Shown here: positions 3,950 to 19,594 of the stretch, piece after piece
Layout: every line of letters starts with the position of its first letter
How positions within the stretch are numbered: position 1 is the stretch's first letter
Assembly: GCA_945876185.1 (NCBI GenBank)
Contig: CAMCMZ010000001.1
Span: forward strand, 66,310-130,309
Length of the DNA: 64,000 nucleotides
Direction of reading: 5' to 3'
DNA from: Candidatus Kuenenia stuttgartensis
GTDB taxonomy: Bacteria > Planctomycetota > UBA11346
Translations under genes and position numbers: made by a program
The notes under the pieces: model-generated
The model's input: only the letters and a program-made list of their open reading frames with translations
Database searches by the model: none
Told to the model about the DNA's origin: nothing

Positions 3950-4219
3950 ATGACCCACTCATCCACCTGGCAACTGCACGAGGCGAAGAATCGCCTCAGC
4001 GAGATGATTCACGCGGTCAAAGAGCACGGACCCCAGACGATCACCCGGCATGGGGTACCGGTGGTGGTGCTGGTGCCCGTCGGCCCGGCGACCGCGTTGG
4101 ACGGATCGCCCTCAGCCTGGGAACTGCTGCGGGATGATGTGGTGGCAGAATTGGGCGGGCCGCCGCCCGTGCCGGAGCGGGTGGTGGAGGCGTCGCCCGT
4201 GGCCACGTTGCCATGGTAG
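3950..4219 (+). CDS. type II antitoxin, Phd/YefM family
   Basis: 89 aa. N-terminus TWQLHEAKNRLSEMIHAVKEHGPQTITRHGVPVVVLVP is the Phd/YefM pattern. It overlaps the downstream PIN toxin gene by 7 nt. Confidence 0.8.
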   Translation: MTHSSTWQLHEAKNRLSEMIHAVKEHGPQTITRHGVPVVVLVPVGPATALDGSPSAWELLRDDVVAELGGPPPVPERVVEASPVATLPW

Positions 4220-7713: not shown

Positions 7714-9447
7714 CTATTGCAGGCCCTGGAAGAACAGCTCGTCCAGTTCGGGCGCGGCGCCGAACGAGTTGAGCGCTTCGCTGTAGCGGTAGTAGACCTC
7801 GAGGCAGAGCGCGCCCAGGGCCGTGGTGTAGACCCGGCCGGCGGCTTTGCCCCAGCGGTCGCCCTTGGGGTCCCAGCTGCCGGCGTGTTCGCCGGTACGG
7901 GTCTGGAACTCGAGGAGGACGTCGCGGATCTTGCGGTTCCACCAGATGCGGTGCTCGCCACCCATGTTGTGCATGGCGTAGGTGGCGTAGTACCAGTAGT
8001 AGAAATCCTTTTGCGGCCAGGTCGGCGCGAAGCGGCGGACGATGTTGGCGCCTTTGACCAGCAGGTGGCTGCTCACGCCCATGCCGTTGAATTGGCGGAT
8101 GACCATGCTGGCCGAGGTCATGACCCCGAGGTGGGTCACCGTTTGCTGGTTCTCGTAATAGACCTCGCCGTTGGAATGCTGCGCGCCGCCCTCGTTGGTG
8201 ACGCTGTCGAGGTAGTTGAGCGCCTGAGAAAAGACCCGGCTTTCAAATTTGACCTGGGCGAGCTTGGCGGTCTTGAACGCCTGGATGAACCAGGCGGTGA
8301 CCGAGGTGTCGGTGCTGGCGGAATTCGGTTCATAGCGCCAGCCGCCGCTGGTGTTGACGGCTTTGGCGCTGAAGTCGATCGCGCGCTGGGACGCGCTCTG
8401 CAGGTTCTCATCGTGGGCCCGGCCGAAGGCCTCGCACACCGCGATGGTGCAGATCGCGTGGGTGTAGAGGTTCTCCCGCGATTCGCTCCAGAAACGGCCG
8501 TTGGCGTCCTGGTGCCGCAGGATGTAATCGAGGCCCTTGATCACGTTGCGGCGGTATTCGCCGCGCCGGGTGTTATGGCCGCCGCCCATGAAGGCGAGGC
8601 AGGATAGGGCGGTCACCGCCAGGCTGGCACTGGCCTCGCCCTCGTAGCGCTCGGCCTTCCATCCGCCATCTGCCTCTTGGTGGATGGCGAGCCAGTGCAG
8701 GGCGGCATCGACGGCGGTGCGCGCCTTGATCCCGCCGGACCGATCCATGGTGCGCATGAAGTCGCCGGTGCCAAAAAGGTTGATGTCCATCGGCCCAAGT
8801 TGGCCGCTGGCCTTGACTTCTTGCTCGCCGAACTGCTTGGGCAGGGCGGTGAGGTGCTTGCCGGGCCGCGGCGCCATCGAGATGTGGTGGACCATGGGCA
8901 GGTCGCTCGGGCGCGGCTCCTTGTATTTGAAGATGTCGGCCGGCTTGAGCGAGTCGGCGGCGATGGTGTTGAGCGCCACCGTCACCGTTTCGGAAACCTG
9001 GGTGATCTCGACCGGCGCCTCCTGGACCTCGACGTTGGTGGCGGTGACATCGATCTTGGGCGAGGTGATGTCGACGTTCTTGGACTTGACGATCTCCTGG
9101 GTGTTCTCGACCGGGTTGGGATCGGTGGTCATCTGGATGTTGGGACGTTCCTCCTTCAGGACCTCCTCCGGCTTCATCTCCTCCTGGCGCTCCTTGATGA
9201 TGTCGCGCACCGGATCCTTGAGCTTCATCTCCTCGGGCTTGACGTCGGCGACCGAGAACTGGAACTCTTCAAGTTTTTTCAGCTTGTCGCCGACCCCACC
9301 CATCCGCCACACCAGCGCCCCGGCGGCGAAGGCGACGGCAGAGACCAGCCCGATCACCAGGGCGCGCTTGTCGAGAATGGTCTCGGCCGCAGCCGTACGC
9401 CGGCGGCGCTTGCGGTTCTCAGCGGGGATCTCGGCGGCGGTGGGCAT
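7714..9447 (-). CDS. membrane-anchored prenyltransferase/squalene-oxidase-repeat (alpha/alpha toroid) protein with TonB/TolA-like N-terminal layout
   Basis: 577 aa. Basic tail (RKRRRR), one TM (LVIGLVSAVAFAAGALVW), and a Glu/Lys/Pro-rich spacer (KPEEMKLKDP...EEMKPEEVLKEERP). The C-terminal ~330 aa carry QW-like repeats HQEADGGW, HQDANGRFW, NTSGGW, HAGSW. Last gene of the TPR-TPR-exbB-exbD operon. Confidence 0.65.
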   Translation of the reverse strand: MPTAAEIPAENRKRRRRTAAAETILDKRALVIGLVSAVAFAAGALVWRMGGVGDKLKKLEEFQFSVADVKPEEMKLKDPVRDIIKERQEEMKPEEVLKEERPNIQMTTDPNPVENTQEIVKSKNVDITSPKIDVTATNVEVQEAPVEITQVSETVTVALNTIAADSLKPADIFKYKEPRPSDLPMVHHISMAPRPGKHLTALPKQFGEQEVKASGQLGPMDINLFGTGDFMRTMDRSGGIKARTAVDAALHWLAIHQEADGGWKAERYEGEASASLAVTALSCLAFMGGGHNTRRGEYRRNVIKGLDYILRHQDANGRFWSESRENLYTHAICTIAVCEAFGRAHDENLQSASQRAIDFSAKAVNTSGGWRYEPNSASTDTSVTAWFIQAFKTAKLAQVKFESRVFSQALNYLDSVTNEGGAQHSNGEVYYENQQTVTHLGVMTSASMVIRQFNGMGVSSHLLVKGANIVRRFAPTWPQKDFYYWYYATYAMHNMGGEHRIWWNRKIRDVLLEFQTRTGEHAGSWDPKGDRWGKAAGRVYTTALGALCLEVYYRYSEALNSFGAAPELDELFFQGLQ

Positions 9448-9467
9448 GACAGGTTCCGATCGATCAG

Positions 9468-9520
9468 GACGTGGCGAAAAAGACGTGGCGAAAAAGCAGA
9501 TGGCGAAAAAGCAGAGCGAA
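9468..9520. repeat. 14-15 bp tandem repeat (GACGTGGCGAAAAA x2, GCAGATGGCGAAAAA, partial) in the exbD-downstream spacer
   Basis: Read directly: 9468-9481, 9482-9495 and 9496-9510, plus a partial unit to 9520. It fills most of the 81 nt gap between the exbD stop (9529) and the next start (9447). Confidence 0.8.
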
Positions 9521-9528
9521 TCGCAGGC

Positions 9529-9966
9529 TCAATCTTTGACCTCGACGGTGGCCGAGACCTTGGTGATTCCGGCCTGGGCGCAGGCGCTCATGACCGCAGC
9601 CACATGCTCCCATTTCACGTTGCGGTCGCCACGGATGACTACCTCCTGGTCGGGGTTCTTGACCTTGGCCCGACTCAGGCTGGTGACCATGCGCGGGACG
9701 CTCATGACCTCGTTCTCAATGTGGTAGACTGGCGGCTTGCTGCCGCCTTGGAAGCGGACGTTGACGATCACCGGGCGGGCAGGCGGGGCCTTCGATTTGA
9801 CCTCTTTGCCCTGGGTCGGCAGGTTGATCGTGAGATCCTGTTCCAGGCTGTCGATGAACGAGGAGCACACCAGCAGGAAGAGGATGATGGCGAAGATGGC
9901 GTCGACCATCGGCGTCATGTCGATGCTCATCGCCTCGTAGGGTTCGCGGTCGAATTTCAGGGCCAT
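9529..9966 (-). CDS. exbD: biopolymer transport protein ExbD/TolR
   Basis: 145 aa. SIDMTPMVDAIFAIILFLLV is the single TM carrying the conserved Asp, followed by a periplasmic domain (VVIRGDRNVKWEHVAAVMSACAQAGI). Confidence 0.9.
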   Translation of the reverse strand: MALKFDREPYEAMSIDMTPMVDAIFAIILFLLVCSSFIDSLEQDLTINLPTQGKEVKSKAPPARPVIVNVRFQGGSKPPVYHIENEVMSVPRMVTSLSRAKVKNPDQEVVIRGDRNVKWEHVAAVMSACAQAGITKVSATVEVKD

Positions 9967-9987
9967 GGGAGGTTCCTTGCCAGCGCT

Positions 9988-11169
9988 TCAGCGGTTCGGC
10001 CGGGCGGCTTTGCCCGGACGCGGGGCGGGCGGATCCTCGTCATCATCCTCGCGCCCGGCTTTCGCCTTCTCCGTCTCCTTTTCCGCACTGGTCGCCACCA
10101 CATCGGTGTCCTCGTCGTCCTCCTCGTCGTCGTCCTGGGCGCCCTCGCCGACGGCTTCGCGGCGCTTGAGGGTCGCGATGCGGTGGATGAACCGTTCGCT
10201 CAGGATCTCGACCTCAGCGATCATGCTGTTGAGGTAGCTGTTGAAGAAGAAGAAGGAAAACAATGAGGGGATGGCGACGAACAGCGCGAAGGCGGTCGAG
10301 AACAGCTTGACCCGGATGCCGGCGGCAAGGATCGAAGCCTTGGCCGCCCCGGTGGTTGAGGCCACGCCTTCGAACACGATCACCATGCCGATGATGGTGC
10401 CGAGCAGGCCGAGCAGCGGGGCCGCCACCGAGATCACGTTGAGCAGCCGCACCGGGAAGCGCAGGCGGTTGATCTGGGCGCTGGCCGCGACGCTGACCCG
10501 TTCCTTGATGTCCTCCAGGTTCGACGAATGCCAGTGCGCGACCATGGCCCGACAGACCACCGCGAACAGGCCCTTGCGCGCGTAGGCGAGATCGGTGAAG
10601 CCTTCAATGTCGCCGGCCTTGAGCAGCTTCAGCCCGCGCTGTTCGAGATCCTGGTCGATCTGGCGCCGCCGCCGGAAGATCCAGATGCAGTTGATGGTCA
10701 TGACCAGGGTCACCACCCCGAGCAGGGCGATGGGATGGAGGGCGGGACCGCCCTGGATGTAGAGGTCGAGCAGGGTCAGACTGGCGGCGATGGTCGCGGG
10801 GCCGGCCCCCTGGACGCGCTGGAAGCGCTGACCGGGTTCGGCGGTGCCGTTGGTGCGCTGGAGCACGAACGATCCGCCGTTCTGGCCCTTGGAGCTGATC
10901 CGCACCACCTTGAAGAAGGTCTTCTGGTCGTTGCGGTAGATGTCGCCTTCCGCCAGGGTGGTGATGTTCTCGTCGGTGTTGACCGGGAATTCCTTCTTGT
11001 CACCGGCTCCGGCGTCCTCGGCCTCGGCCTTGGCCTTGTCGTCGTCGACGATCACCTTGGTGAGATCGAGCGGTTTCTCCTCGACCGCCGCCGGCAAGGC
11101 CGGCGCGCCGATGCCTGCGAAAATGGCGAGGAAGGCCAGGAGGATGAGGGACAAGGGGATGGATCGCAT
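9988..11169 (-). CDS. exbB: MotA/TolQ/ExbB proton-channel protein with signal peptide, ~110 aa N-terminal periplasmic extension and acidic C-terminal tail
   Basis: ORF 9988..11292. Start moved to ATG 11169 (MRSIPLSLILLAFLAIFAG, signal-like) because upstream codons are a 12 bp tandem repeat. Conserved PLLGLLGTIIGMVIVFEG motif. Tail DDDEEDDEDTD. Confidence 0.85.
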   Translation of the reverse strand: MRSIPLSLILLAFLAIFAGIGAPALPAAVEEKPLDLTKVIVDDDKAKAEAEDAGAGDKKEFPVNTDENITTLAEGDIYRNDQKTFFKVVRISSKGQNGGSFVLQRTNGTAEPGQRFQRVQGAGPATIAASLTLLDLYIQGGPALHPIALLGVVTLVMTINCIWIFRRRRQIDQDLEQRGLKLLKAGDIEGFTDLAYARKGLFAVVCRAMVAHWHSSNLEDIKERVSVAASAQINRLRFPVRLLNVISVAAPLLGLLGTIIGMVIVFEGVASTTGAAKASILAAGIRVKLFSTAFALFVAIPSLFSFFFFNSYLNSMIAEVEILSERFIHRIATLKRREAVGEGAQDDDEEDDEDTDVVATSAEKETEKAKAGREDDDEDPPAPRPGKAARPNR

Positions 11170-11187
11170 GGTGGCTCCGGAGCGGAC

Positions 11188-11280
11188 GGGAAGGCGGGTG
11201 GAAAGGCGGGTGGAAAGGCGGGTGAAAAGGCGGGTGGGAAGGCGGGCGGGGGATAGGAAGGCGGGTGGGGGTGGGAAAGC
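11188..11280. repeat. G-rich 12 bp tandem repeat (GGAAAGGCGGGT-like, ~5 good copies then degenerate)
   Basis: GGGAAGGCGGGT GGAAAGGCGGGT GGAAAGGCGGGT GAAAAGGCGGGT GGGAAGGCGGGC..., read directly. Located in the 119 nt spacer between the TPR-1170 stop (11289) and the exbB start (11169). Confidence 0.85.
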
Positions 11281-11288
11281 AGGCATGG

Positions 11289-14200
11289 TCACTTGTTAGC
11301 CGGACTCTTGGCGAGTTCCTTCTGTACCGCGACCAGTAGGGCGCGGGCCTCGTCGATGGCCTGGCGGTCGCCCTTGGGGAAGTCGCGCAGCAGGCGTTCG
11401 AGCAGATCGCGCGATTTCTCAAAGGCTTTGAGCTGTTGCGCGCAACGGGCCGCCTCAAGCAGGCTGGTCTCGCGGGCGAAGGTGGCGACGCTGGTCTCGA
11501 ACCAGGTCATCGCCTCCTTGGGGTTCGGCGGTGGACCGCTGCGCACGGTGACCGCCACCTGGAAGGCGGCGTCGGCCTTGACGTCCTCGTAGGTGTCCGC
11601 CTTGGCCAGACTCTTGAGCACGGCCAGGCCCTCGGCGGTCTTGCCCTGGCCGAGCAGGCTGCGGCCGCTCAGCACCTCGAGGCGGGTACGCCAGTCGCTG
11701 CGCGGGAATTCGCGGTTGAACTGCTGGAAGCACGCGTCGAAGTCCTTCCAGGCCTTGGCCTCGATCCAGGCTCGGCCGGTCCAGATCGCGACTTCCTCAA
11801 TCGCCGGGAAGCGGGGGTGATCGCGTTTGAGGATGGCCAGGGTCTTGCCGGCACCGGCGAAATCACTGCGGCGAAACTGGCTCTGCCCAGCCATGAACAA
11901 GGCCCGGTCGCGGCTGGGGTTCTTGGCCAGGGCGGGATCGTCGGCGAAGGGCTGCAGCGCCAGCGCAGCCTGGGTGAAGTCGTCCTTCTTGAAATGGAGG
12001 ACGCCAAGATTGTAGCGGATTTCGCCTTGATCGAGATCCTTGGGCACCGGCAGGCGGATGCCATCCCAGCGTGAGGACCGGTTCAGGCGTTCTTGCGCCG
12101 GGATCGGGATCGCCTGGTTGGTCTTGGGGTCGAGCTTGTTCTCGCCGTATTCATCAAGGAGCGCGGCATAGGCGTTGACCGCGATCTGGTAGTTGTCGGC
12201 GGTACCGGCCTGGACCCCGAGGATCTTCAGGGCTGACAGGCGGAAACGCTGATTGCTCGGATCGCGCAGGCCGTCGAGGTACGGCTTCCAGGCGTTGATC
12301 AGGCGGGTGAGGTCGCCGAGCTCCTTGTACGCCGAACCGAGGGCATAGCGGGCGATGGGGACCTGGTCATCAAGTGCATAGGCCACGCGCTCCGGCTCGC
12401 TCAGCCGGCTGGGGTCGCGCTGATAACGATCCAGGAAGCATTGGAAGACGGCGGCGGCGCGCTCGTGCTCGCCGAGTTCGAGCCAGATCTGGCCGGCGCG
12501 CATCATCGCGGCACGGACATAGCGGACGGCGCTGTCATCGTTGGCGGCAACCCAGGGCTGCCAGTTCTTGGCGAATTCAGCCGGAACCAGGCTCTTGCAC
12601 ACCACCTGGGTCCACAGCGCCTCGGCCAGGGCCTTGCGGTTCTCTTTGGTCTCGCCGGCCTTGCCCTTGCCCAGTTCCAGGGCCAGCCAGTACTTCGCCT
12701 CGGGCAGCCAGCGGTTGCGCTCGGGCAGATTCTTCACCAGCCACTGGTAGGCGGCGACCATGTTCCTTTCATGGCCCTGCATGTACCAGGCCTGGGCGAT
12801 GCGGCCGGAGGCATCCTGGATCTGCTTGGTCACTTCGTCATCGGCGGGGACGAAGGCGGCGGTGAAGTTGCCGTCGCCGTCCTGTTTCGGCCCATAGGTG
12901 ATGATGAATTCCTTCCAGGACTTTGCCGCCTTGGAGAAATCCTTGCGCAGGTAGTGCAGCTCGGCGAGGTAGAACCGGGCGTTGCGGGCCACGTCCGACA
13001 GCGGCCCGGCGTCGGCGATGAGTTTTTCGGTATCAGCGATGGCGTCCTTCACCGCGTCGTCGCCGGCGACCCGGGTGATCATTCCCTTGAGGTAGTCGTT
13101 AGCCTTGGCCTGGAGTTTGACATCGGCTTTTTCTTCCAGCGCCTGTTTGCGGGTGATGTCGAACAGCTCCTGGTATTTCTTGCGGGCAAGGTTGGTGTTC
13201 CCGGCGATCTCGGCGATCCGGGCGACGGCCTCCAGGCCGGGCACGCGGTAGCGGTTGCTGCTGTCGGCCGGCAGGATGGAGATGGATTTTTCGTAGGCTA
13301 CGATGGCGGTAGCCCAAGATTCCTTGGTGCCGCCATGGCCCAGGCAGTAGCCGTTCTGGGCGTGGCAGTAGGCGGTCAGGTCGGGCGTGAGGACCGTCAC
13401 ATAGGTCTTTAGGATCTGCTGGTATTCCACCGCCAGGGCGGCGGTCGCGACGGCGCTGCGGGGGTCGCGGGGATTGCGATTGCGGTCGAGCCGGCCCAGG
13501 GCCTGGTCCTGGATGGCGATGGCGGCCTCGGCGGCGGCCAGGGTGCCCGGCTGCTTGGCGATGATGTCCTTCCAGAATTGATCATCGAGGGTGATGTCGG
13601 GTCGCGCCTTCTCGCCCAGGGCGTCCTGGCAGGCGATGATCCGGCCGAGCACGTTGATCTTGGTGCCGAGCGAACGCAGCATGAGGTAATAATCGAGCGC
13701 GACGGCCCAGTTCTTCTTCAGGTAGTTGGCCTCGGCGAGGTTGAACCAGCACTGTTCCAGGATCTCGGTCTTGCGCGCGGTTTCGATGTCACGGACGAGG
13801 TTGGCCGCCACCTCAAAGCGCTGCAGGGCCTGGTCCTGATCCTTGAGGTCACGCTGCCAGATCTGGGCCGCCAGTACCAGCGCCTCGGCGGCGAAGGCGC
13901 GCAGCGAGGGCTGGGTGTACTTGCCGACCGCGTCGAGCGTCTTAGTTGCGCCGGCAAAGTCCTTGCGTTCGTGCAGGATCACCCCGAGCAGGTATTCGGC
14001 GGCGACCGCCTCCTGGCTGCCGGGGAAGCGCGTGCGTACCTGTTCGCACAATCCGGCCGCGACGTCGAGCTTGCCTTTCTGGCGGTTGAGCGCCGCGACC
14101 TTCAGCAGCAGTTCAGGAAGATGGACGTCGCTCGGCCATTTCTCGGCGAGGTAAGTGATCGCCTGGACCGCGTCGTCAAGTTTTTCCGCATGCAGCCACA

Positions 14201-14801
14201 GCAGGGCCAATTTGTAGGCCGCGACCGGGGCGAGCGGGGAGGTGCGCCGGCGCAGGATGTTGAACTTGGCGGCGGCGTCGTCCCATTTGGTCAGGATGGC
14301 GTAATAGCCCCCCGCCAGCATGAGGGCGTCGTCCTCGTACAAACCGCCGCCGCCGGCGAGGAGCTTTTCGAGGATGGCCACCGCCTCTTTGTGGTTCTTG
14401 AGCGAGGCCTGGAGCTTGCCGAGCGAGAACAGGGCCTCGTCGCGGCCGCGGAACTTGGCCTGGGTGTTGGCGACCGCAGTGTACTGCTCCACCGCCTCTT
14501 CCAGCTTGCCGAGGTCCTCATAGCAGCGGCCGAGCCGGTAACGCGTCTCGAAGGCCTGGCTGTGGTCGGGATAGCGCTTGAGGAAGTCTTCATAGACCTT
14601 GGCAGCCGCGCTGCTGTTGCCGTCCTTGGTCAGGCGCTCGGCCCCGACCAGGGATTCCTCCGGGGTCGCAGCCGTGAGCGGCGCCGGCAGCACGACGGCG
14701 GCGGCGAGGAGCAGGCCTGCGAGGCTGCCCCAGTGCCTGCCCCGATGCTCGGCGAGAGGATGTCGGGCACGCAACGAATCCGCCTTGGGGTGGAAGGCCA
14801 T
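11289..14801 (-). CDS. large secreted tetratricopeptide-repeat protein (1170 aa)
   Basis: N-terminal signal-like segment (LAGLLLAAAVVLPAPLTAA). The rest is a recurrent 34-residue helical-pair pattern (A..Y..FL..YP.......A.Y.LG.CY...G....A). The 3 nt gap to the upstream TPR gene implies co-transcription. Confidence 0.8.
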   Translation of the reverse strand: MAFHPKADSLRARHPLAEHRGRHWGSLAGLLLAAAVVLPAPLTAATPEESLVGAERLTKDGNSSAAAKVYEDFLKRYPDHSQAFETRYRLGRCYEDLGKLEEAVEQYTAVANTQAKFRGRDEALFSLGKLQASLKNHKEAVAILEKLLAGGGGLYEDDALMLAGGYYAILTKWDDAAAKFNILRRRTSPLAPVAAYKLALLWLHAEKLDDAVQAITYLAEKWPSDVHLPELLLKVAALNRQKGKLDVAAGLCEQVRTRFPGSQEAVAAEYLLGVILHERKDFAGATKTLDAVGKYTQPSLRAFAAEALVLAAQIWQRDLKDQDQALQRFEVAANLVRDIETARKTEILEQCWFNLAEANYLKKNWAVALDYYLMLRSLGTKINVLGRIIACQDALGEKARPDITLDDQFWKDIIAKQPGTLAAAEAAIAIQDQALGRLDRNRNPRDPRSAVATAALAVEYQQILKTYVTVLTPDLTAYCHAQNGYCLGHGGTKESWATAIVAYEKSISILPADSSNRYRVPGLEAVARIAEIAGNTNLARKKYQELFDITRKQALEEKADVKLQAKANDYLKGMITRVAGDDAVKDAIADTEKLIADAGPLSDVARNARFYLAELHYLRKDFSKAAKSWKEFIITYGPKQDGDGNFTAAFVPADDEVTKQIQDASGRIAQAWYMQGHERNMVAAYQWLVKNLPERNRWLPEAKYWLALELGKGKAGETKENRKALAEALWTQVVCKSLVPAEFAKNWQPWVAANDDSAVRYVRAAMMRAGQIWLELGEHERAAAVFQCFLDRYQRDPSRLSEPERVAYALDDQVPIARYALGSAYKELGDLTRLINAWKPYLDGLRDPSNQRFRLSALKILGVQAGTADNYQIAVNAYAALLDEYGENKLDPKTNQAIPIPAQERLNRSSRWDGIRLPVPKDLDQGEIRYNLGVLHFKKDDFTQAALALQPFADDPALAKNPSRDRALFMAGQSQFRRSDFAGAGKTLAILKRDHPRFPAIEEVAIWTGRAWIEAKAWKDFDACFQQFNREFPRSDWRTRLEVLSGRSLLGQGKTAEGLAVLKSLAKADTYEDVKADAAFQVAVTVRSGPPPNPKEAMTWFETSVATFARETSLLEAARCAQQLKAFEKSRDLLERLLRDFPKGDRQAIDEARALLVAVQKELAKSPANK

Positions 14802-14804
14802 CGC

Positions 14805-17800
14805 TCAATTCTCTTTCTTGGTGTTTGGCTTCGCGTTTGGCTGCGCGTTGGGTACGGAGGTCGGGGTGACCACGGGGGCCGGCGTAGGCACCGCAACCGG
14901 CGCCGCATCACCGCCGGATTCGCCAGAAGGCCCCGGATTGCCGACCGGCTTGGCACCGATCCCGGGCGGCAGCCCGAGCCGGGCGCGCGCGCGTTCTGCA
15001 TACGGTGAGAGCGGGAAGCGGTCGACGACCTGCTGCAAGCGTTCCCGGGCGAGATCCTTTCGGCCGAGCTGGTCGAGACATTCACCCAGATGGTAGGTGC
15101 CGCGCACCGCCGACTCGGCGGTGGTGGTGAACACCAGCAGGTATTCCAGGTTCTCGCGCGCCTTGTCCCAATCCTGGGTGCGCATGCCGATGCGGGCGAG
15201 CTGGATGAGCGCATCGGCTGCGAGGTAATCGTCGGGCGCCGAGGCGCAGGCCTGCAGGCGCTCGTTCGCCTTGGCCCAGCGCCCCTCGCGCACGTCGGCC
15301 TGGGCCAGGGCCCAGTAGTTCCAGGTCGCGCGGGCGTGATCGGTGCGCGGTCGCGCCTTGCGCAGGTCGTCGGGCAGGTCGAGGTAGGAGCGCAGGAAAG
15401 CGGTCTCCTCGGCCGGGAAGTCGCGCTCGCTGGCTTTGCCGGCGCTCAGCTTGCAGGCCCATTCCGCCAGGGCGGCGATGCGGCGTTCCGACGGCAGCGC
15501 GGCTTCTTTGGTCAGCAGCGCATATTGCTCGGCCGCTGCGCTGGCCTGGCCGGCGCGCATCAGGGCGCGGGCATAGGCATCGCGCAGGCGCTGCAGTTCC
15601 TCACCAGGCTGGGCCGAGGTCAGCAGCGGCTTCAGGCGATCCGCCGCCCCGGCGTAGTCGGCCATATCGAAGCGGATCCACGCGACCTCGATCTCGATCC
15701 GGCGCTTCTCGGCTGGATCCTTGGCCTCCTTGGCCAGGGTCTCAAGCATGGCGATGACCTCGGGGAAGCGCTTCAGGCCGCGGTAGACGGCCAGCATCAG
15801 GCCCTGGGTCTCGCGCCGGCGCTCGGTCTCGGGATAGCGCCGAAGCAGGAGCTGGGCGTTTTCCAGGGCCTGCGGCATCAGGCCATCCTTGCGGTAGGCC
15901 GAGGCGAGACGGAAGTAGGCCCGTTCGGCGATCGGGGGTTCGAGATTCTCTATCCGCACCGCCAGGCCCTGCTCTTCGAGCACGTCGCAGAGCAGATCGA
16001 AGCCGCTCTGCGCGATCGCAGGGCGGTTGATCGGGGTGAAGCCGGTCTGGGCGGTCGGGTCGAGCACCAGGTTCACGTGCGCCTGGATGCGCATGAAGTC
16101 GGTGAACTGGTCCGGACCCGCGTCCTTGAGCGCACCCGTCACCTTTTCGCCGAGGACGAACTGGGTGTCGTAGGCCATCAAGGCACGCACCGCCTCGCGA
16201 TCGAGCTTGGGCTTTTCCGGCGGCTGAGCGTCCGGCACCTTAGTTTCAGGCGTCGCGCTGGCGGGCGCTGCTGCGGCAGGCGTCGCGCTGGCGGCCGGCT
16301 TGGCGTCCGGCCCCGGTTTGGGCCGGTAGACCACCACGCGCTCCTCGGCGGCGCGGGCGTAGTAGGTCACCGCCTCGTTGAACTTCTTCTCGTTTTCCAG
16401 GATCCAGCCGATCCAGAAATTGGCCTGGTGCCAGTATTCATACGCCGGCTGGTCGAAGACCTTGAGGTATTCGCGCAGGATCGCGCGCATGCGCTCGTAG
16501 TCCTTGAGGCTGTAGAAGTTGATCGCGACCATGAACAGAGCGCGTTCGCCGTAGTTCGACTTGGGGTCGAGCTTGCGCACCTTGTTGAAGCAGTCCTTGG
16601 CGAATTCGTACCATTCGCCGGCGACATCCTGGCGCACCACCTGCGCCTGCAGGCTCTGGCTGGCGAGCAGGGTGGTGAGCACCTCGGCACAGGACTGCTG
16701 CTCTTTCCCCGCATCCTTGAACTCAGCCGCGAGCTTGCCTTCCTTGTCGATCCCCGGGGTCCAGGTGACTCGCAGCCGGGTCGCGGCCTCGATCTGCTTG
16801 AGGATGTCATAAAGCATCGGCGCGCGGCCCGGGGTGTTGATCCGGCCAATCCGCGCCGCGAGCTGGGGGAAGCGGGCGAGGCCCTGGTGGCTGTCATAGA
16901 TTTCCAGCACCCGCACCCGTTCATGGTCAGGATCATCCTCGGCGGCGGCGGGCGGCTCGATGGTCGGCTTGCCACCGCTGAGCCCGACATCAAAGGCGAC
17001 CCGGAAGGCAGGATCAAGAATGCGATCGAGCGCCTCGGCCACGGTCTGCGAACCATCAGCCAGGTCGCGCCGGGTCGTCGCCAGCCAGCCGGCGATGGTC
17101 TTGGGGTCGGTTGGATTGGACTTGGAGTTGGAGTTGGAGTTGGAGTTGGAGTGAGTCCAGACCAGGGGGATGCCGGCAGTCTTGCTCAACGCCACCAGCG
17201 CCTCGCCGGCCAGCACCTGCTTGCCGCCATTAGGCCAGGTCAACTCGACGCGCTTGCTCAGGGGCGCATAGGTCCGGCGCACCTCGTCGCCGAGATCGAT
17301 CCCGGCCTTGGCCCCGATCTGGATGACATAGGAGCTGAGATCGCGTGCCTTCAGCGCCTCGCGGCCGGCCCGGCTGTAGAGGCTGCCGGCGGTGAAATAC
17401 AAGCGGGTGAGATCCTCGGCGGCGAGTTCGCGGCCGCGATCCGCGACCCCGGCATATTGTTTGCCCGCCTCGGCAAAGCGGCTCTGGTCGCGATACCAGT
17501 CGCCGAGATCGAGGGCGAGCTTCTGGAAGCGCGGATCGGCGCCGTATTCGCCTTCGAGTTCCTGATAGCGCGCCTCGGCCTTGATCCGGTGCTCCGGCAC
17601 CGGCGATTTCAGCATCGCCTCAAGCAGGGCGAGTTCGATGCTCTTGACCAGCTCCAGGCGCTTGGGCGGCACCGTGGCGCGGGCCTTCTGCAGGATCGCG
17701 ACCGCAGTTTCGGCCTTGGCATCCTTGCGCCAGACCGGTGCCACCTCGCCGCGCTTGGGTTCAGGCGGCTGCACCGAGGCGATCTCGGCGCTGCCGCGCA

Positions 17801-19376
17801 GCAGCCCGGCCTCGGCGCGCAGCGCGGCCCACGATTCCTCAGCGAGGCCGGCACCGGTGAAGGCGCGCTCATCGAGCAGCCGGTCACAGGCCGCTGCGGT
17901 GGCCATCCAGTCGGGGGCCTTGAGCACTTTCCTGGTTTTTTCCTCGACCAGGGTCTTGGCGTGATGGCGGGCGAGGCTGAGCAGGGATTCCGCCGCCTCG
18001 CTGCTGCCCGGACGATCCTTGGCGGTGCGTTCCCAGAGCTTGAGCTGGTCGTCGGCGCTGCGGGCAAAGGCGGTGTCCTGGCCCTTGCTGGTCAGGACCG
18101 CGATGTGCTCGGGCGCCTTCTTGGTCTCGGGCGCGAGCGGAAAGCGGGTGAAAAGCTGAGCGAAATATTCGCGCGATTTGGCGAAATGCGCCGCCGCCTG
18201 GGCCGGGCGGGCATCCAGGCCCTGATCGAGTTCGAACTTCCCGAGGTGGAACAGAGCATTCGCGGCGTAGGCGGTATTGCCGGTCGCCAGCACCCTTTCA
18301 TAGCATGGCGCAGCCTGGGTGGTCAGCGCCTTCTCGCGATAGAGGTCGCCCAGGGTGTTCTGCACCTGGGCGTAGCCCTGGGAATCGGCGCCGACCTTGC
18401 GCAGCCAGTTCTCGACCTTGGCGGGATTGCCATCGGACTTCGCCTTCTCGCTCAGGCCAAGGAGCAGGAACATGTCGGATTTCAGCCCCGAGGCCGGCAC
18501 CAGATCAATGAAGCCATCGCGCAGGAGCTGCTGTTGCGCACCGTTATGATCGCCGGTCTCATATGCCAGCTTGGCCAGGAGCAGTCGCGCCTTGGCCATC
18601 ACGGCGCTGTCGAAACGCACGGTTTCCAGGTGCTGGCGCGCCTCGGGGATCTTCTTGCGCTCCAGGTACAAGGCCCCGAGCTGGAGGCAGACCTGATCAT
18701 GCGCGGCGCCCACCGCCGCCGGAACCTGGGCCCGCTGGGACTCGGCCTGCTGAATCTGTTTTCGCAGCCCGTTGAGGATCCGGGCGAAGAGATCGAACGC
18801 CTTGTCGGCCATCCCGTTCTGGGCGAAGAAATTGCACAGGATCTGGTCCGCCTCGGTCAGGGTGTTGGCCGCGATCTTGCCGCTGTCGGCGTAGAGCTTC
18901 TGGTGGATCCCTTCGAGTTCGGCCTGCACGCCGCGACCGCGCGGGGCGAGGATGCTCATCTTATAGACCAGCAGGGTGCCGACCTGGGCGTCGACCGCGC
19001 GCTGGGCCGCGTAGCCATCGATGCGTTCAAGCGCGGCGGTGAAATCACCGAGCCGGTAGAGGGCGCAGGCGAGCCGATAGTCCGCTTTGGCCTTGTCGGT
19101 GGCAGAGCTGAGATTCTTCAGCGCCTTGGTGAAGGCAGTCCGAGCCGGATCATACTGGCCGGCGCGGTAGTGGGCTTCGCCCAGCAGGAGGAACTGGGTG
19201 CCGCAGGCGTCCTCGGATTTGCCCTGGATGTCGGCGGTCAGCAGCTTGATCGCATCGTTGAAGCGGCGGGTCTTGATGAGTTCGCCGGCCTGCGGCAGGA
19301 CATTCTGGTCGGCCGCCGCCAGACTGCCGGCGAACGCGCAAAGACTGGCGACGAGCAGGCCGGTACGGAAGCGCAT
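14805..19376 (-). CDS. giant secreted tetratricopeptide-repeat protein (1523 aa) with a non-TPR central insert
   Basis: Signal peptide MRFRTGLLVASLCAFAGSLAAA. TPR-like repeats occupy both thirds. The central ~200 aa (about 16680-17310) is non-TPR and includes an (SN)n tract encoded by a TGGAGT hexamer repeat at 17112-17152. Confidence 0.8.
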   Translation of the reverse strand: MRFRTGLLVASLCAFAGSLAAADQNVLPQAGELIKTRRFNDAIKLLTADIQGKSEDACGTQFLLLGEAHYRAGQYDPARTAFTKALKNLSSATDKAKADYRLACALYRLGDFTAALERIDGYAAQRAVDAQVGTLLVYKMSILAPRGRGVQAELEGIHQKLYADSGKIAANTLTEADQILCNFFAQNGMADKAFDLFARILNGLRKQIQQAESQRAQVPAAVGAAHDQVCLQLGALYLERKKIPEARQHLETVRFDSAVMAKARLLLAKLAYETGDHNGAQQQLLRDGFIDLVPASGLKSDMFLLLGLSEKAKSDGNPAKVENWLRKVGADSQGYAQVQNTLGDLYREKALTTQAAPCYERVLATGNTAYAANALFHLGKFELDQGLDARPAQAAAHFAKSREYFAQLFTRFPLAPETKKAPEHIAVLTSKGQDTAFARSADDQLKLWERTAKDRPGSSEAAESLLSLARHHAKTLVEEKTRKVLKAPDWMATAAACDRLLDERAFTGAGLAEESWAALRAEAGLLRGSAEIASVQPPEPKRGEVAPVWRKDAKAETAVAILQKARATVPPKRLELVKSIELALLEAMLKSPVPEHRIKAEARYQELEGEYGADPRFQKLALDLGDWYRDQSRFAEAGKQYAGVADRGRELAAEDLTRLYFTAGSLYSRAGREALKARDLSSYVIQIGAKAGIDLGDEVRRTYAPLSKRVELTWPNGGKQVLAGEALVALSKTAGIPLVWTHSNSNSNSNSKSNPTDPKTIAGWLATTRRDLADGSQTVAEALDRILDPAFRVAFDVGLSGGKPTIEPPAAAEDDPDHERVRVLEIYDSHQGLARFPQLAARIGRINTPGRAPMLYDILKQIEAATRLRVTWTPGIDKEGKLAAEFKDAGKEQQSCAEVLTTLLASQSLQAQVVRQDVAGEWYEFAKDCFNKVRKLDPKSNYGERALFMVAINFYSLKDYERMRAILREYLKVFDQPAYEYWHQANFWIGWILENEKKFNEAVTYYARAAEERVVVYRPKPGPDAKPAASATPAAAAPASATPETKVPDAQPPEKPKLDREAVRALMAYDTQFVLGEKVTGALKDAGPDQFTDFMRIQAHVNLVLDPTAQTGFTPINRPAIAQSGFDLLCDVLEEQGLAVRIENLEPPIAERAYFRLASAYRKDGLMPQALENAQLLLRRYPETERRRETQGLMLAVYRGLKRFPEVIAMLETLAKEAKDPAEKRRIEIEVAWIRFDMADYAGAADRLKPLLTSAQPGEELQRLRDAYARALMRAGQASAAAEQYALLTKEAALPSERRIAALAEWACKLSAGKASERDFPAEETAFLRSYLDLPDDLRKARPRTDHARATWNYWALAQADVREGRWAKANERLQACASAPDDYLAADALIQLARIGMRTQDWDKARENLEYLLVFTTTAESAVRGTYHLGECLDQLGRKDLARERLQQVVDRFPLSPYAERARARLGLPPGIGAKPVGNPGPSGESGGDAAPVAVPTPAPVVTPTSVPNAQPNAKPNTKKEN

Positions 19377-19594
19377 GGGATACTCACTCGCTGATGGCTG
19401 GTGAGGGCGAGATGACGGTCAGCCTCATCATACCCTTGGAAGGGGATCGCGTTGAAAAGAATCTTCATGGGCTTGCCGGGTTGTAGATCCTGTGGCAGAG
19501 CAGGCGACCGATGGGCGCAACCAGACCGCCCGTGGGCAGCCTGCGGCATCGTATCCGCCCCAGCGACCCTGGGGGGTCGTTACCAACTTGATCC

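What the first reader, a model, noticed from the sequence alone, without database searches (positions are those of the whole stretch)
7714..19376. ExbB-ExbD motor operon without TonB/TolA: the transducer slot holds a TonB-like anchored alpha/alpha-toroid protein, preceded by two giant secreted TPR proteins
Five co-directional minus-strand genes sit at gaps of 3, 119, 21 and 81 nt.
- TPR protein of 1523 aa and TPR protein of 1170 aa, both with signal peptides.
- An ExbB-like channel with its own signal peptide, a ~110 aa periplasmic N-extension and a poly-acidic tail.
- ExbD with the conserved TM Asp (TPMVDAIF).
- A 577 aa protein at the position where tonB or tolA normally follows exbD/tolR.

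The 577 aa protein copies the TonB/TolA layout: basic cytoplasmic stub RKRRRR, one TM helix, and a Glu/Lys/Pro-rich spacer (KPEEMKLKDP..EEMKPEEVLKEERP). Its C-terminal ~330 aa, however, carry QW-like repeats (HQEADGGW, HQDANGRFW, NTSGGW, HAGSW). These are typical of the prenyltransferase / squalene-cyclase / thioester-domain toroid, not a TonB_C or TolA-III domain.

No TonB_C, TolB or Pal gene is visible in the window. The TM lacks the SxxxH motif of TonB/TolA, so any coupling to ExbBD would be non-canonical. The central non-TPR insert of the 1523 aa protein (about 16680-17310) shows two short segments that look loosely like secretin/TonB-N (STN)-type modules; that impression is weak and unverified.

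Inference: this is a proton-motive-force-driven envelope machine whose output domain is a toroid rather than a TonB box binder. I know of no characterised system with this composition.
Basis: partly seen in the sequence, partly recalled or inferred. Interest (0 to 1): 0.72.

Follow-up and report, generated by a model that had tools for sequence, protein, structure and literature searches.

The report
Proton motor operon with toroid-headed transducer
A five-gene operon conserved across Planctomycetes-Verrucomicrobia-type bacteria pairs an ExbB/ExbD proton motor with a membrane-anchored protein whose head is an alpha/alpha barrel instead of the usual TonB or TolA head, which probably marks an undescribed way of powering the outer cell envelope.

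Summary
Five minus-strand genes lie at gaps of 3, 119, 21 and 81 nt: TPR 1523 aa, TPR 1170 aa, ExbB-like 393 aa, ExbD 145 aa and a 577 aa protein.

The 577 aa protein has a basic stub, one TM helix (27-49), a 190-residue linker and a confidently modelled (alpha/alpha)6 toroid (240-557). No TonB_C or TolA domain is detectable.

The module is self-contained. About 70 PVC metagenome and MAG loci keep the same five genes, almost always in the same order, with unrelated flanks.

Three new points:
- A sister toroid family in Planctomycetota has a TonB-type TM ([SA]xxxH in 23/24) and a Glu/Pro linker. One member sits in a TPR-exbB-exbD-toroid operon.
- The window's family has no TM His (0/46). It keeps a TonB "D-box"-like strand motif (E-F-x-F-x-V-x-E-P) about 15 residues after the TM.
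- The linker is conserved and gap-free, not low-complexity.

Best reading (about 0.55): a Ton/Tol-type PMF-driven envelope system with a toroid output head and giant CpoB-like TPR scaffolds. The ligand and outer-membrane partner are unknown.

It is a new variant of a known kind. The closest described relatives are the vWA-headed transducers reported in 2025. No paper in the searchable library describes it.

The parts
14805..19376 (-). Giant secreted TPR protein (1523 aa). It has a signal peptide, TPR arrays at both ends, and conserved non-TPR central modules.
   Evidence: ORF and translation. Pfam finds TPR_1/2/6/8/12/16 and YfiO. NCBIfam tol_pal_ybgF scores 1.5e-21, below cutoff. It is colinear with 22 full-length orthologs. 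The independent gene call is the same.
16602..17324 (-). Central non-TPR insert of the 1523 aa protein (residues 685-925). It may hold STN-like beta-alpha-beta modules. The window's own STN match is at residues 772-788 (17013-17063).
   Evidence: Pfam STN (PF07660) is the only recurrent family: 8 of 23 orthologs, best E 1.3e-5, and 0.0025 in the window, all below the 28.4-bit cutoff. Internal repeat similarity is weak (hhalign E 0.0035). A PDB profile search found nothing. The single-sequence AF2 model was unusable (pLDDT 38.7).
15927..16205 (-). Second conserved non-TPR module of the 1523 aa protein (residues 1058-1150). It follows an Ala/Pro-rich insertion that is specific to the window.
   Evidence: Alignments A3 and tpr1. 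It resembles the second half of the central insert weakly (hhalign E 9e-5, probability 59%).
11289..14801 (-). Giant secreted TPR protein (1170 aa) with CpoB/YbgF-type TPR repeats.
   Evidence: Pfam TPR_16 at 1e-29 and TPR_6 at 7e-27. NCBIfam TIGR02795 tol_pal_ybgF scores 8.1e-43 (145.8 bits, summed over 5 stretches). Orthologs sit at the same position in the loci.
9988..11169 (-). ExbB/TolQ-like proton-channel subunit (393 aa). It has a signal peptide, a ~105 aa periplasmic N-extension, three TM helices and an acidic C-terminal tail.
   Evidence: Pfam MotA_ExbB at 5.9e-19. The best PDB sequence matches are TolQ (9avi, 5.9e-10). TM2 (LGLLGTIIGM) and TM3 (STAFALFVAIPSLF) keep the TolQ/ExbB Thr and Pro positions.
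9529..9966 (-). ExbD/TolR-like subunit (145 aa) with the TM Asp.
   Evidence: Pfam ExbD at 1.7e-22. It aligns to E. coli ExbD (6tyi, 1.4e-6), and the Asp of TPMVDAIF falls on ExbD D25.
7714..9447 (-). 577 aa bitopic inner-membrane protein occupying the tonB/tolA slot. Its order is a basic cytoplasmic stub, a TM helix, a conserved linker, an (alpha/alpha)6 toroid and a conserved acidic C-terminal tail.
9301..9369 (-). TM helix (residues 27-49). A29, G33 and W47 are conserved. It has no His and no SxxxH.
   Evidence: The AF2 helix spans 27-49. Conservation is shown. None of 46 family members has a TM His.
9244..9264 (-). D-box-like beta-strand motif FQFSVAD (residues 62-68; family consensus E-F-x-F-x-[VIL]-x-E-P), about 15 residues after the TM.
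   Evidence: F64 is invariant and F62 is at least 90% conserved. The motif is visible in about 40 of the 43 family members whose post-TM sequence was recovered. The D-box pattern Phi-z-Phi-z-Phi-Phi-z, delimited by Pro, and its position come from PMC10907165.
8737..9300 (-). Conserved, gap-free periplasmic linker (residues 50-237). It is predicted to be unstructured on its own.
   Evidence: pLDDT is below 50, yet many positions are conserved and almost no gaps occur across 50 homologs. This N-terminal module is found only in this family among 1.84 billion representative proteins (30 hits).
7777..8730 (-). (alpha/alpha)6 toroid (residues 240-557) of the terpenoid-cyclase/prenyltransferase superfamily. 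It lacks the DxDD catalytic motif.
   Evidence: pLDDT is mostly above 90. Foldseek matches GH76, AGE epimerases, AprG, single-domain SHC and MstE, with TM-scores of 0.53-0.67 normalised by target length. The family profile hits SHC at 4.3e-11 through QW motifs, and the SHC DxDD aligns to non-acidic residues.
7717..7776 (-). Conserved C-terminal tail (family consensus SEALNSFG.APDLD.LF), a possible docking peptide.
   Evidence: It is conserved in alignment A1. The TonB-type sister toroid proteins I read through to the stop codon lack it: one ends right after EVYYRY and L070 carries an unrelated tail.

Best explanation
The five genes form a self-contained operon conserved across the PVC superphylum. 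I read it as a Ton/Tol-type, proton-motive-force-driven envelope system.

The proposed parts are these.
- ExbB and ExbD form the inner-membrane stator, presumably 5:2.
- The 577 aa protein is its partner. It is N-in and C-out and anchored by one TM helix.
- A D-box-like strand just outside the membrane could be captured by the ExbD periplasmic domains.
- A ~190-residue conserved extended segment and an acidic C-terminal tail probably dock onto the two giant CpoB/YbgF-type TPR scaffolds.
- A non-catalytic (alpha/alpha)6 toroid serves as the output or binding head, in place of TonB_C or TolA domain III.

The most likely role is Tol-like: energised contact with a peptidoglycan- or outer-membrane-associated ligand for envelope maintenance or remodelling, rather than classical TonB-box gating.

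What is shown: gene content, domain identities, conservation of the motor residues, topology logic, synteny, and the homology of the toroid to TonB-N-fused toroids.

What is inferred: physical coupling to ExbBD, TPR docking, the ligand and the cellular role.
For: Motor integrity
- ExbB keeps the TolQ/ExbB TM2/TM3 Thr and Pro positions, and ExbD keeps the TM Asp.

Synteny
- TPR-TPR-exbB-exbD-toroid is found in 33 complete loci: 21 genome loci after removing a duplicate and 12 metagenome loci, some of which are the same contigs.
- About 30 further loci are cut by contig ends but are consistent with the same order.
- Record titles span Planctomycetota/Phycisphaerae, Verrucomicrobiota, Lentisphaerae and Kiritimatiellia.
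- Three loci have the permuted order exbB-exbD-toroid-TPR-TPR (L018, L020, L105).
- No flanking gene family recurs downstream or upstream.
- In L002 the exbD stop and the toroid start share a base.

Topology
- The basic stub precedes the TM. Some homologs carry an N-terminal FHA domain, a cytoplasmic module, so the toroid is periplasmic.

Sister family in Planctomycetota
- The toroid is ~33% identical and keeps the same YYWYYATYA and GRVYTTA..LEVYYRY motifs.
- It has a TonB-type TM with His in 24/24 and [SA]xxxH in 23/24, followed by a Glu/Pro-rich linker.
- L070 is a compact TPR-exbB-exbD-toroid operon of this type.

Possible coupling sites in the window's family
- The D-box-like motif sits at the TonB D-box position.
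- The TM helix has a conserved small-residue face (A29, G33) and W47.

Other points
- The N-terminal module occurs with no other head domain.
- The toroid lacks DxDD.
- Precedent exists: vWA-headed transducers next to TPR plus tolQ/tolR genes in PVC (PMC12204202).
- The Tol-Pal system is reported as largely reduced in Planctomycetes (PMC8871954).
Against: - The window's family has no His or SxxxH in the TM (0/46), so the one well-established TonB/TolA-to-motor contact is missing.
- No outer-membrane partner, TolB, Pal or TBDT gene is conserved near the operon.
- The linker is not proline-rich or rod-like.
- The D-box resemblance is a 7-residue pattern.
- No complex prediction could be run.
- Whether the genome also has canonical tonB/tolA is unknown.
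- No experimental data exist.
- Every locus found comes from a metagenome or a metagenome-assembled genome. None comes from a cultured isolate.
Confidence: 0.55

Rival explanations
1. A Tol-like motor with an uncoupled accessory protein. ExbBD and the TPR proteins form the energised system. The 577 aa protein is only a membrane-tethered periplasmic enzyme or binding protein, for example one acting on envelope glycan, peptidoglycan or a polyprenyl-linked intermediate. The real force transducer is encoded elsewhere.
For: - No SHLS-type His is present in the TM.
- Foldseek's best matches are enzymes: GH76 mannanase, AGE-family epimerases and AprG.
- Many invariant polar and aromatic residues in the barrel could form an active or binding site.
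- Two MAGs that each carry a full operon on another contig (L007, L005) also carry an orphan copy (L012, L047) with no exbBD nearby.
Against: - The gene keeps a strict position after exbD across phyla.
- The D-box-like motif and TM face are conserved.
- The sister family carries the same toroid on a TonB-type N-terminus.
- No catalytic motif of any matched enzyme family was identified, and DxDD is absent.
Confidence: 0.22
2. An accessory energising module of a type II secretion or type IV pilus-like secretin machine. The ExbBD-toroid-TPR set would power or gate a secretin-based envelope conduit.
For: - L014 reads secretin, GspE-like ATPase (MshEN), MORN, exbB, exbD, FHA-toroid.
- L018 reads GspE, GspF, a 166 aa ORF, exbB, exbD, toroid, TPR, TPR.
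- The weak STN-like modules resemble the domain type shared by secretin and TonB-dependent receptor N-termini.
- FHA fusions recall the T3SS YscD cytoplasmic domain (PF16697 hit).
Against: - The association is seen in only 2 of about 75 loci.
- tblastn with the L014/L018 GspE, GspF and secretin proteins found nothing in 30 metagenome loci, about 25 of them with 2-10 kb upstream of the operon. No gene family recurs there or in the 10 kb upstream in the window.
- Pfam finds PA14 and FeoB upstream in the window.
- The third permuted locus, L105, has CstA, a TBDT barrel and CoaBC upstream instead.
Confidence: 0.1
3. A canonical Ton system whose tonB lies elsewhere in the genome. The toroid gene would be an unrelated passenger, such as a terpenoid or hopanoid cyclase-like enzyme.
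For: - tonB is often unlinked from exbBD in other bacteria (general knowledge).
- The sequence hits are to squalene-hopene cyclase.
- One locus has a TBDT barrel gene nearby (L105).
Against: - The gene is conserved as the fifth gene of the module across four PVC lineages.
- The toroid is predicted to be periplasmic, is a single 320-residue barrel and has no DxDD.
- The N-terminal module is exclusive to this family.
Confidence: 0.06
4. A Zorya-like anti-phage defence system built on a MotAB/ExbBD-type motor.
For: The flanks differ in every locus, as they do for mobile islands. Zorya uses a 5:2 motor (general knowledge).
Against: - PADLOC finds nothing except a 13-bit ZorA match to the generic MotA/ExbB segment.
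- No nuclease, helicase or other effector gene is present.
- The proteins are secreted TPR scaffolds.
- The family is conserved at 40-60% identity across phyla, which fits vertical descent.
Confidence: 0.02

Closest known systems
Ton system (ExbB-ExbD-TonB)
   Same: - It has an ExbB/ExbD stator with conserved channel residues.
- A bitopic N-in partner is encoded right after exbD.
- A strand motif sits at the position of the TonB D-box (PMC10907165).
- Long ExbB proteins with a periplasmic N-extension are already known (PMC9008036).
- TPR proteins occur in some Ton operons, for example Vibrio TtpD2. That TtpD2 is a TPR protein is my recollection; PMC6957404 was listed but not read.
   Different: - There is no TonB_C domain and no SHLS His in the TM.
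- The linker is conserved and fixed in length, not proline-rich.
- The head is a 320-residue (alpha/alpha)6 toroid.
- Two giant TPR proteins are integral to the operon.
- No TBDT partner is evident.
Tol-Pal system (TolQ-TolR-TolA-TolB-Pal-CpoB)
   Same: - ExbB and ExbD score best against the TolQ and TolR models.
- Both TPR proteins are built from CpoB/YbgF-type repeats.
- The operon places the motor genes before the transducer gene.
   Different: - TolQ and TolR scores are far below the equivalog cutoffs.
- There is no TolA domain III.
- No TolB or Pal gene lies in or near the operon.
- The TPR proteins are 4-6 times longer than CpoB and precede the motor genes.
vWA-headed force transducers of PVC and other phyla (Williams-Jones et al. 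2025, PMC12204202)
   Same: [quoted passage not shown]
- They occur in the same lineages (Planctomycetes, Verrucomicrobia).
- Their function is also unknown.
   Different: - The head here is a toroid, not vWA.
- There is one tolR-like gene rather than a heterologous pair.
- There are two giant TPR proteins rather than one TPR gene.
- The window's family lacks the SHLS His, which many of those vWA proteins keep.
TonB-N-type toroid proteins of Planctomycetota (found here: L060-L083)
   Same: - The toroid is homologous (~33% identity, shared motifs).
- The architecture is the same: bitopic, linker, then toroid.
- One member (L070) lies in a TPR-exbB-exbD-toroid operon.
   Different: - They carry [SA]xxxH in the TM and a Glu/Pro-rich, variable linker.
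- The two I read to the stop codon lack the conserved C-terminal tail.
- They are usually unlinked from exbBD and often lie in mfd, SurA-like, toroid, toroid clusters.
- I found no description of them in the searchable literature.
Squalene-hopene and class II terpene cyclases; prenyltransferase beta subunits
   Same: They share the (alpha/alpha)6 barrel with QW-type repeats. These are the only significant sequence hits (Pfam PF13243; PDB 3sqc at 4.3e-11).
   Different: - It is a single barrel rather than a beta-gamma didomain.
- There is no DxDD.
- It is predicted to be periplasmic on a long tether.
- The operon contains no terpenoid pathway genes.
Agl-Glt gliding machinery of Myxococcus (TolQR-like motor, TonB-like GltG/GltJ, TPR proteins GltC/D/E)
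   Same: A TolQR-type motor is combined with bitopic transducers and several large periplasmic TPR proteins. Cytoplasmic regulatory domains sit on the transducer, as in GltJ (PMC11135422), which parallels the FHA-fused variants here.
   Different: - GltG and GltJ have TonB_C-like heads.
- The NCBIfam hits to GltC and GltE are weak and generic (E 1.5e-3 and 0.03).
- The operon has no outer-membrane Glt components.

Membership tests
Ton system | ExbB of the MotA_ExbB family with conserved TM2/TM3 channel residues | tested here: met
   PF01618 at 5.9e-19. The Thr and Pro positions align with TolQ/ExbB structures.
Ton system | ExbD with the essential TM aspartate | tested here: met
   PF02472 at 1.7e-22. 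The Asp of TPMVDAIF aligns to E. coli ExbD D25.
Ton system | TonB C-terminal domain (PF03544) on the transducer | tested here: not met
   Pfam finds no hit at E<=0.1, NCBIfam none, and the PDB profile none at E<=1. The model shows a toroid.
Ton system | SHLS-type TM motif with the conserved His | tested here: not met
   None of 46 family members has a TM His. The sister family has it in 24/24.
Ton system | D-box strand motif just after the TM (Phi-z-Phi-z-Phi-Phi-z, delimited by Pro) | tested here: inconclusive
   FQFSVAD at residues 62-68 fits the pattern and the position, and it is conserved (definition). It is only a short motif, and binding was not tested.
Ton system | TonB-dependent outer-membrane transporter as partner | not testable with these tools
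   None is present in the window or conserved in the flanks. The whole genome was not available.
Tol-Pal system | TolQ and TolR equivalogs | tested here: not met
   These are the best NCBIfam hits, but they fall far below cutoff: TolQ 62.4 bits against 221, TolR 56.4 against 127.3.
Tol-Pal system | TolA with domain III; tolB and pal adjacent | tested here: not met
   There is no TolA hit. No recurrent flanking gene family appears in about 75 loci.
Tol-Pal system | CpoB/YbgF TPR protein | tested here: inconclusive
   TIGR02795 gives 145.8 bits (cutoff 90.1) for the 1170 aa protein, but the score is summed over five repeat stretches. The architecture (1170 and 1523 aa) is not that of CpoB.
Class II terpene cyclase / squalene-hopene cyclase | (alpha/alpha)6 barrel with QW repeats | tested here: met
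   PF13243 at 2.3e-8. The profile hits 3sqc at 4.3e-11. The model and Foldseek agree.
Class II terpene cyclase / squalene-hopene cyclase | DxDD general-acid motif | tested here: not met
   The SHC DVDDTA segment aligns, in a low-scoring stretch, to non-acidic residues (family consensus h-a-I-c-t-I-A).
Class II terpene cyclase / squalene-hopene cyclase | Beta-gamma didomain architecture with access to the cytoplasmic membrane face | tested here: not met
   It is a single 320-residue barrel following an N-in TM and a 190-residue linker, so it is predicted to be periplasmic.
vWA-type motor-driven force transducers (PMC12204202) | TM, linker and globular head, encoded after TPR plus tolQ/tolR-like genes | tested here: met
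   description.
vWA-type motor-driven force transducers (PMC12204202) | vWA fold in the C-terminal domain | tested here: not met
   The head is a toroid, and there are no vWA hits.
Zorya / known defence systems | ZorA/ZorB plus effector proteins | tested here: not met
   PADLOC gives only a 13.3-bit ZorA match in the generic MotA segment.
T2SS / T4P accessory module | Linked GspE, GspF or secretin genes | tested here: not met
   They are absent from the window, and tblastn with the L014/L018 GspE, GspF and secretin proteins found nothing in 30 metagenome loci. They are present only in L014 and L018.

The most novel reading that the evidence does not exclude
PVC bacteria have a family of toroid-headed force transducers that takes the place of TonB_C or TolA-III heads.

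It comes in two lineages. One is a TonB-N-type (SxxxH) lineage in Planctomycetota. The other is the operon-embedded lineage seen here, which has dropped the TM His and may rely on a D-box-like strand and giant TPR scaffolds.

On this reading, the five-gene operon is a stand-alone PMF-driven trans-envelope machine. It could be the functional substitute for the reduced Tol-Pal system, or the energiser of macromolecule uptake, in these phyla.
Probability: 0.4. Interest if true: 0.8.

Novelty: new variant of a known kind. Interest (0 to 1): 0.68.

Why it matters
Ton and Tol are the two textbook ways in which Gram-negative bacteria deliver inner-membrane energy to the outer envelope. Both use one head fold.

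A second non-canonical head, the toroid, follows the vWA heads reported in 2025. It is conserved with its own motor and scaffold across Planctomycetota, Verrucomicrobiota, Lentisphaerae and Kiritimatiellia. That would show that the 5:2 motor-plus-tether design is modular.

It would also give a concrete candidate for how PVC bacteria energise outer-membrane or peptidoglycan processes. In these bacteria TonB and Tol-Pal are reported to be missing or reduced.

Finally, it offers a natural experiment on motor coupling: one toroid lineage has the SHLS His and one does not.

Tried and rejected
- **Homolog searches for the TPR insert.** Two searches (window residues 685-1150, then alignment A2) returned nothing useful. 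The likely cause is that low-complexity words filled the candidate list. As a result, no permitted alignment existed for a structure prediction of that insert.
- **Single-sequence AlphaFold2 of the insert.** The model was unusable (pLDDT 38.7).
- **Profile searches against PDB sequences.** Neither the insert (A2) nor the TonB-type N-termini (A5) gave a hit. The STN claim and the TonB-N claim therefore rest on sub-threshold Pfam hits and on a motif, respectively.
- **Internal-repeat test of the insert by hhalign.** Similarity was weak (E 0.0035 and 9e-5 in pairwise comparisons).
- **Search for a conserved sixth gene or outer-membrane partner.** No flanking family recurs in more than 3 loci, either downstream or upstream.
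- **T2SS linkage.** It was seen in L014 and L018 but was not confirmed in 30 further loci or in L105. I keep it as a lead, not as the explanation.
- **The 2152 aa protein after the FHA-toroid gene in L014.** It has no Pfam domain and no detectable similarity to either TPR family.
- **Defence-system reading.** Rejected.
- **Terpene cyclase enzyme reading.** Rejected, because DxDD is absent and the barrel is periplasmic.
- **Extending beyond the window to look for tonB/tolA.** This failed because my start-codon choices did not match recorded proteins. The ±10 kb around the toroid gene shows nothing relevant.
- **Organism name.** It could not be obtained.
- **Promoter and terminator scan.** It is uninformative: 0 promoter-like sites, and terminator-like sites below the shuffled expectation.

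Full report
**1. What is in the window**

Five minus-strand ORFs occupy 7714-19376.
- 14805-19376: 1523 aa.
- 11289-14801: 1170 aa.
- 9988-11169: 393 aa from the ATG. The open frame runs up to a GTG at 11292, but orthologs align from the ATG form.
- 9529-9966: 145 aa.
- 7714-9447: 577 aa.

All five have coding-type GC3 of 0.85-0.89. An independent gene caller on the source contig (ENA ERZ27280287 k141_2096311, 164,198 bp) reports the same five products. The scan found no promoter-like site inside the block and no convincing terminator-like site on the coding strand. That scan is weak evidence, and co-transcription remains untested.

**2. Domain identities**

- Both giant proteins are TPR proteins with signal peptides. 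NCBIfam's best model for both is the CpoB/YbgF repeat (TIGR02795): 8.1e-43 over five stretches for the 1170 aa protein and 1.5e-21 for the 1523 aa protein.
- The 393 aa protein is MotA_ExbB (5.9e-19). Its nearest solved relatives are TolQ structures (9avi, 5.9e-10). The alignment keeps the Thr and Pro positions of TM2 and TM3 (LGLLGTIIGM, STAFALFVAIPSLF).
- It also has a signal peptide, a ~105-residue periplasmic extension and an acidic tail. ExbBs with a long periplasmic N-extension are already described (PMC9008036, seen).
- The 145 aa protein is ExbD (1.7e-22). The Asp of TPMVDAIF aligns with E. coli ExbD D25.
- So the stator looks functional.

**3. The 577 aa protein**

- Pfam finds only SQHop_cyclase_C (2.3e-8), with weaker hits to Pec_lyase (PF09492, a different alpha-barrel type) and SQHop_cyclase_N. 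NCBIfam finds only cyclase-type and SCO2321-type hits.
- No TonB_C or TolA model matches at E<=0.1.
- A 50-sequence family profile searched against all PDB sequences hits only squalene-hopene and class II cyclases (3sqc, 4.3e-11, through the QW-type repeats). It hits no TonB or TolA chain at E<=1.
- AlphaFold2 with that alignment gives a TM helix at 27-49, no confident structure for 50-237, and a 12-helix barrel at 240-557 with pLDDT mostly above 90.
- Foldseek against the PDB returns only (alpha/alpha)6 barrels of many functions: GH76 mannanases, AGE-family epimerases, AprG, single-domain cyclases and MstE. TM-scores normalised by target length are 0.53-0.67, identity is 10-16%, and the best E-value is 6.6e-7.
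- The fold is therefore certain, and the superfamily by sequence is terpenoid cyclase/prenyltransferase. No specific functional family is indicated.
- In a low-scoring stretch of the profile alignment, the DxDD motif of squalene-hopene cyclase falls on non-acidic residues. A cyclase activity is therefore not expected.

**4. Topology**

The basic stub RKRRRR precedes the TM. About a fifth of the homologs listed carry an N-terminal FHA domain (also matching PF16697, the T3SS YscD cytoplasmic domain) in front of the same TM-linker-toroid body. FHA domains are cytoplasmic. The protein is therefore N-in, and the toroid is periplasmic.

**5. Conservation and synteny**

- The protein has at least 192 homolog clusters at 90% identity, at E<=1e-5 among the candidates scored. 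Of the 120 listed, 119 besides the window's own sequence are 48-79% identical, and all cover at least 92% of the query.
- Looking up two of them shows the same five genes in the same order with different flanks.
- A scan of one genome per GTDB species found 80 loci, all from metagenome-derived or uncultured-organism assemblies. tblastn with the five window proteins gave these results:
  - 21 distinct loci carry all five genes in the order TPR1523, TPR1170, ExbB, ExbD, toroid.
  - About 17 further loci are cut by contig ends, and what remains is in the same order.
  - Two loci (L018, L020) have the permuted order ExbB, ExbD, toroid, TPR, TPR.
  - One locus (L014) has ExbB, ExbD, FHA-toroid without the giant TPRs.
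  - Two loci (L012, L047) are second, orphan toroid copies in MAGs that also carry a full operon.
- A metagenome scan with the N-terminus of the 1523 aa protein added 30 loci, some identical to the genome loci. Twelve were complete in the standard order, one was permuted (L105), and the rest were truncated but consistent.
- Record titles place these loci in Planctomycetota (Phycisphaerae, Tepidisphaerales), Verrucomicrobiota, Lentisphaerae/Victivallales and Kiritimatiellia. The depositors' labels are not verified, and some, such as 'Akkermansia', look doubtful.
- Several MAGs carry two full operons.
- Clustering of all flanking ORFs found no gene family shared by more than three loci, either downstream or upstream of the first TPR gene. 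The five genes are therefore a self-contained module, and no outer-membrane partner is encoded with it.

**6. The linker is not a TonB-like spacer**

- Residues 50-237 are predicted to be unstructured. Yet they are conserved and almost gap-free in 50 homologs (F64, E100, P102, I162, Y175, P180, G207 and G226 are invariant).
- A phmmer search of residues 1-237 against 1.84 billion representative proteins found 30 hits. Apart from two giant repeat proteins that match only a short repetitive segment, their lengths fit full-length members, FHA-fused members or fragments. No hit suggests a different head domain, although domains were not checked for the short ones.
- A conserved extended segment of fixed length suggests that it folds on partners. 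The two TPR solenoids are the obvious candidates, as they are for the conserved acidic C-terminal tail (SEALNSFG.APDLD.LF). The TonB-type sister proteins I read to their stop codon lack that tail. This docking model is inference.

**7. Evidence that the toroid is a transducer head**

- The genome scan also recovered a second group (L060-L083, Planctomycetota) that matches only the toroid (31-36% identity) but keeps its signature motifs.
- Their N-termini are different and look like TonB/TolA. There is a single TM with an invariant His (24/24) in an [SA]xxxH context (23/24), preceded by a P-Y-L/W motif. A short I-x-A strand-like motif and a Glu/Pro-rich linker of variable length follow.
- The SHLS His is the residue that contacts ExbB/TolQ (PMC12204202; PMC10907165).
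- One of these proteins (L070) is the fourth gene of a compact TPR (386 aa), ExbB, ExbD, toroid operon.
- Others lie in a recurrent mfd, SurA-like PPIase, toroid, toroid cluster.
- The same head is therefore used by proteins that have the classical motor-binding anchor.
- The TonB-N resemblance is at motif level only. No HMM or PDB profile hit supports it.

**8. How the window's family might couple**

- It has no TM His at all (0/46). It does conserve A29, G33 and W47 in the helix.
- Fifteen to seventeen residues after the TM-end Trp it conserves E-F-x-F-x-[VIL]-x-E-P. In the window this is FQFSVAD-VKP, with F64 invariant.
- This matches the TonB D-box in both pattern (Phi-z-Phi-z-Phi-Phi-z, delimited by Pro) and position. 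The D-box is the strand captured by the ExbD periplasmic dimer (PMC10907165).
- The authors of that paper suggest that force may be applied through the D-box, with the SHLS contact serving mainly to localise TonB. On that view a family that keeps the D-box and loses the His is still plausible as a transducer.
- This is a short motif and an inference. I could not run complex prediction.

**9. The STN-like sub-claim**

- The 1523 aa family is colinear over its whole length. It has two conserved non-TPR regions (residues ~685-925 and ~1058-1150) and window-specific low-complexity insertions.
- Scanning 23 orthologous inserts against Pfam gave STN (PF07660) as the only recurrent family: 8 of 23, best 1.3e-5, and 0.0025 at residues 772-788 in the window, all below the curated cutoff.
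- Repeat detection within the insert is weak. The PDB profile search was negative. A single-sequence structure model failed.
- Verdict: possible, but unproven.

**10. Rivals**

- **(a) Uncoupled periplasmic enzyme or binder.** The missing His, the enzyme-rich Foldseek list and the orphan copies support it. The fixed gene position, the conserved D-box-like strand and the sister family argue against it.
- **(b) Accessory of a secretin, T2SS or T4P-like machine.** Two divergent loci place GspE (plus secretin or GspF) directly before exbB. Nothing similar was found in 30 further loci. Around the window operon, Pfam finds a PA14 protein, FeoB and a chemoreceptor, none of which is conserved elsewhere.
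- **(c) Canonical Ton system with tonB elsewhere and a passenger cyclase.** PVC-wide retention of the gene in the module and the missing DxDD contradict it.
- **(d) Defence system.** PADLOC is negative.

**11. Comparison with the literature**

- Full-text searches found no paper that connects a cyclase or prenyltransferase-like toroid with ExbBD/TolQR.
[quoted passage not shown] It concludes that further 5:2-motor systems remain to be found (PMC12204202).
- Tol-Pal is reported as largely reduced in Planctomycetes (PMC8871954). Planctomycetes are absent from the list of phyla in which TonB had previously been detected, as quoted in PMC12204202.
- The present system shares the design of those systems but fails the defining tests for TonB, TolA, the vWA class and terpene cyclases. 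I therefore file it as a new variant of the motor-plus-transducer kind, not as a member of any of them.

**12. Verdict**

The mechanism is inferred. Interest is fairly high because the system is conserved across a superphylum, is undescribed, and bears on how PVC bacteria energise their outer envelope. The limits are the lack of experimental data, the lack of any locus from a cultured isolate, the lack of a whole-genome context, and the unknown ligand.

Noticed in passing
L060-L083 (e.g. L077:9422-12721, L079:9518-11071, L065, L066, L071, L073): Planctomycetota encode toroid proteins with a TonB-type N-terminus ([SA]xxxH in the TM, then a Glu/Pro linker). They are often tandem pairs or triplets and lie in a recurrent mfd, SurA-like PPIase, toroid, toroid cluster. 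These may be the 'missing' TonB-like proteins of that phylum.
   Followed up: partly
L014:1930-18230 and L018:4831-19653: In two divergent loci, type II secretion / type IV pilus genes directly precede exbB-exbD-toroid. L014 has a secretin and a GspE-like ATPase with an MshEN domain; L018 has GspE and GspF. L014 also replaces the giant TPRs with a secreted 2152 aa protein that has no Pfam domain.
   Followed up: partly
P0006, P0009, P0016 (L002:10001-12049), P0045 (L014:8876-11647) and others: About a fifth of the toroid-family members listed carry an N-terminal cytoplasmic FHA domain (also matching the T3SS YscD cytoplasmic domain model). This suggests phospho-threonine-dependent regulation of the system in some lineages.
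   Followed up: partly
L105:3149-5083 (minus strand): A TonB-dependent receptor beta-barrel gene lies about 1.6 kb upstream of exbB in one permuted-order locus. At least one organism with this operon therefore also has a TBDT.
   Followed up: no
window 29278-38712 (+): A 3144 aa ORF with Calx-beta, Big_9 and cadherin-like domains sits in a stretch of lower G+C (0.56-0.61 against about 0.67 elsewhere). It may be a horizontally acquired giant adhesin.
   Followed up: no
window ~3950-4674 (+): A PhdYeFM antitoxin and PIN toxin gene pair lies between the radical-SAM gene and the 3' end of the chemoreceptor gene. It was identified from the independent gene calls in L114 and was not evident from my own ORF choice.
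   Followed up: no
window 4661-7567 (-): A 968 aa methyl-accepting chemotaxis protein (Cache_3-Cache_2, dCache_1, HAMP, MCPsignal) follows the toroid gene co-directionally after 146 nt. This neighbour is not conserved in other loci.
   Followed up: yes
window 14805-19376 (residues ~742-752 and ~1024-1055 of the 1523 aa protein): An SNSNSNSNS run and an Ala/Pro-rich stretch are insertions specific to this genome and are absent from 22 orthologs. They probably also derailed the word-based homolog searches.
   Followed up: yes
window 15090-19394 (+): A 1434 aa ORF runs antisense to the 1523 aa TPR gene. Its GC3 is below that of the minus-strand gene, and the independent gene calls list no gene there. 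It looks like the long spurious open frame that is usual in high-GC DNA.
   Followed up: yes
window 42931-47383 (+) and 49108-50583 (-): An HlyD-type adaptor plus AcrB-type RND pump pair and a PSCyt1 (planctomycete cytochrome c) domain protein are present. They fit a PVC-type genome and are unrelated to the finding.
   Followed up: no
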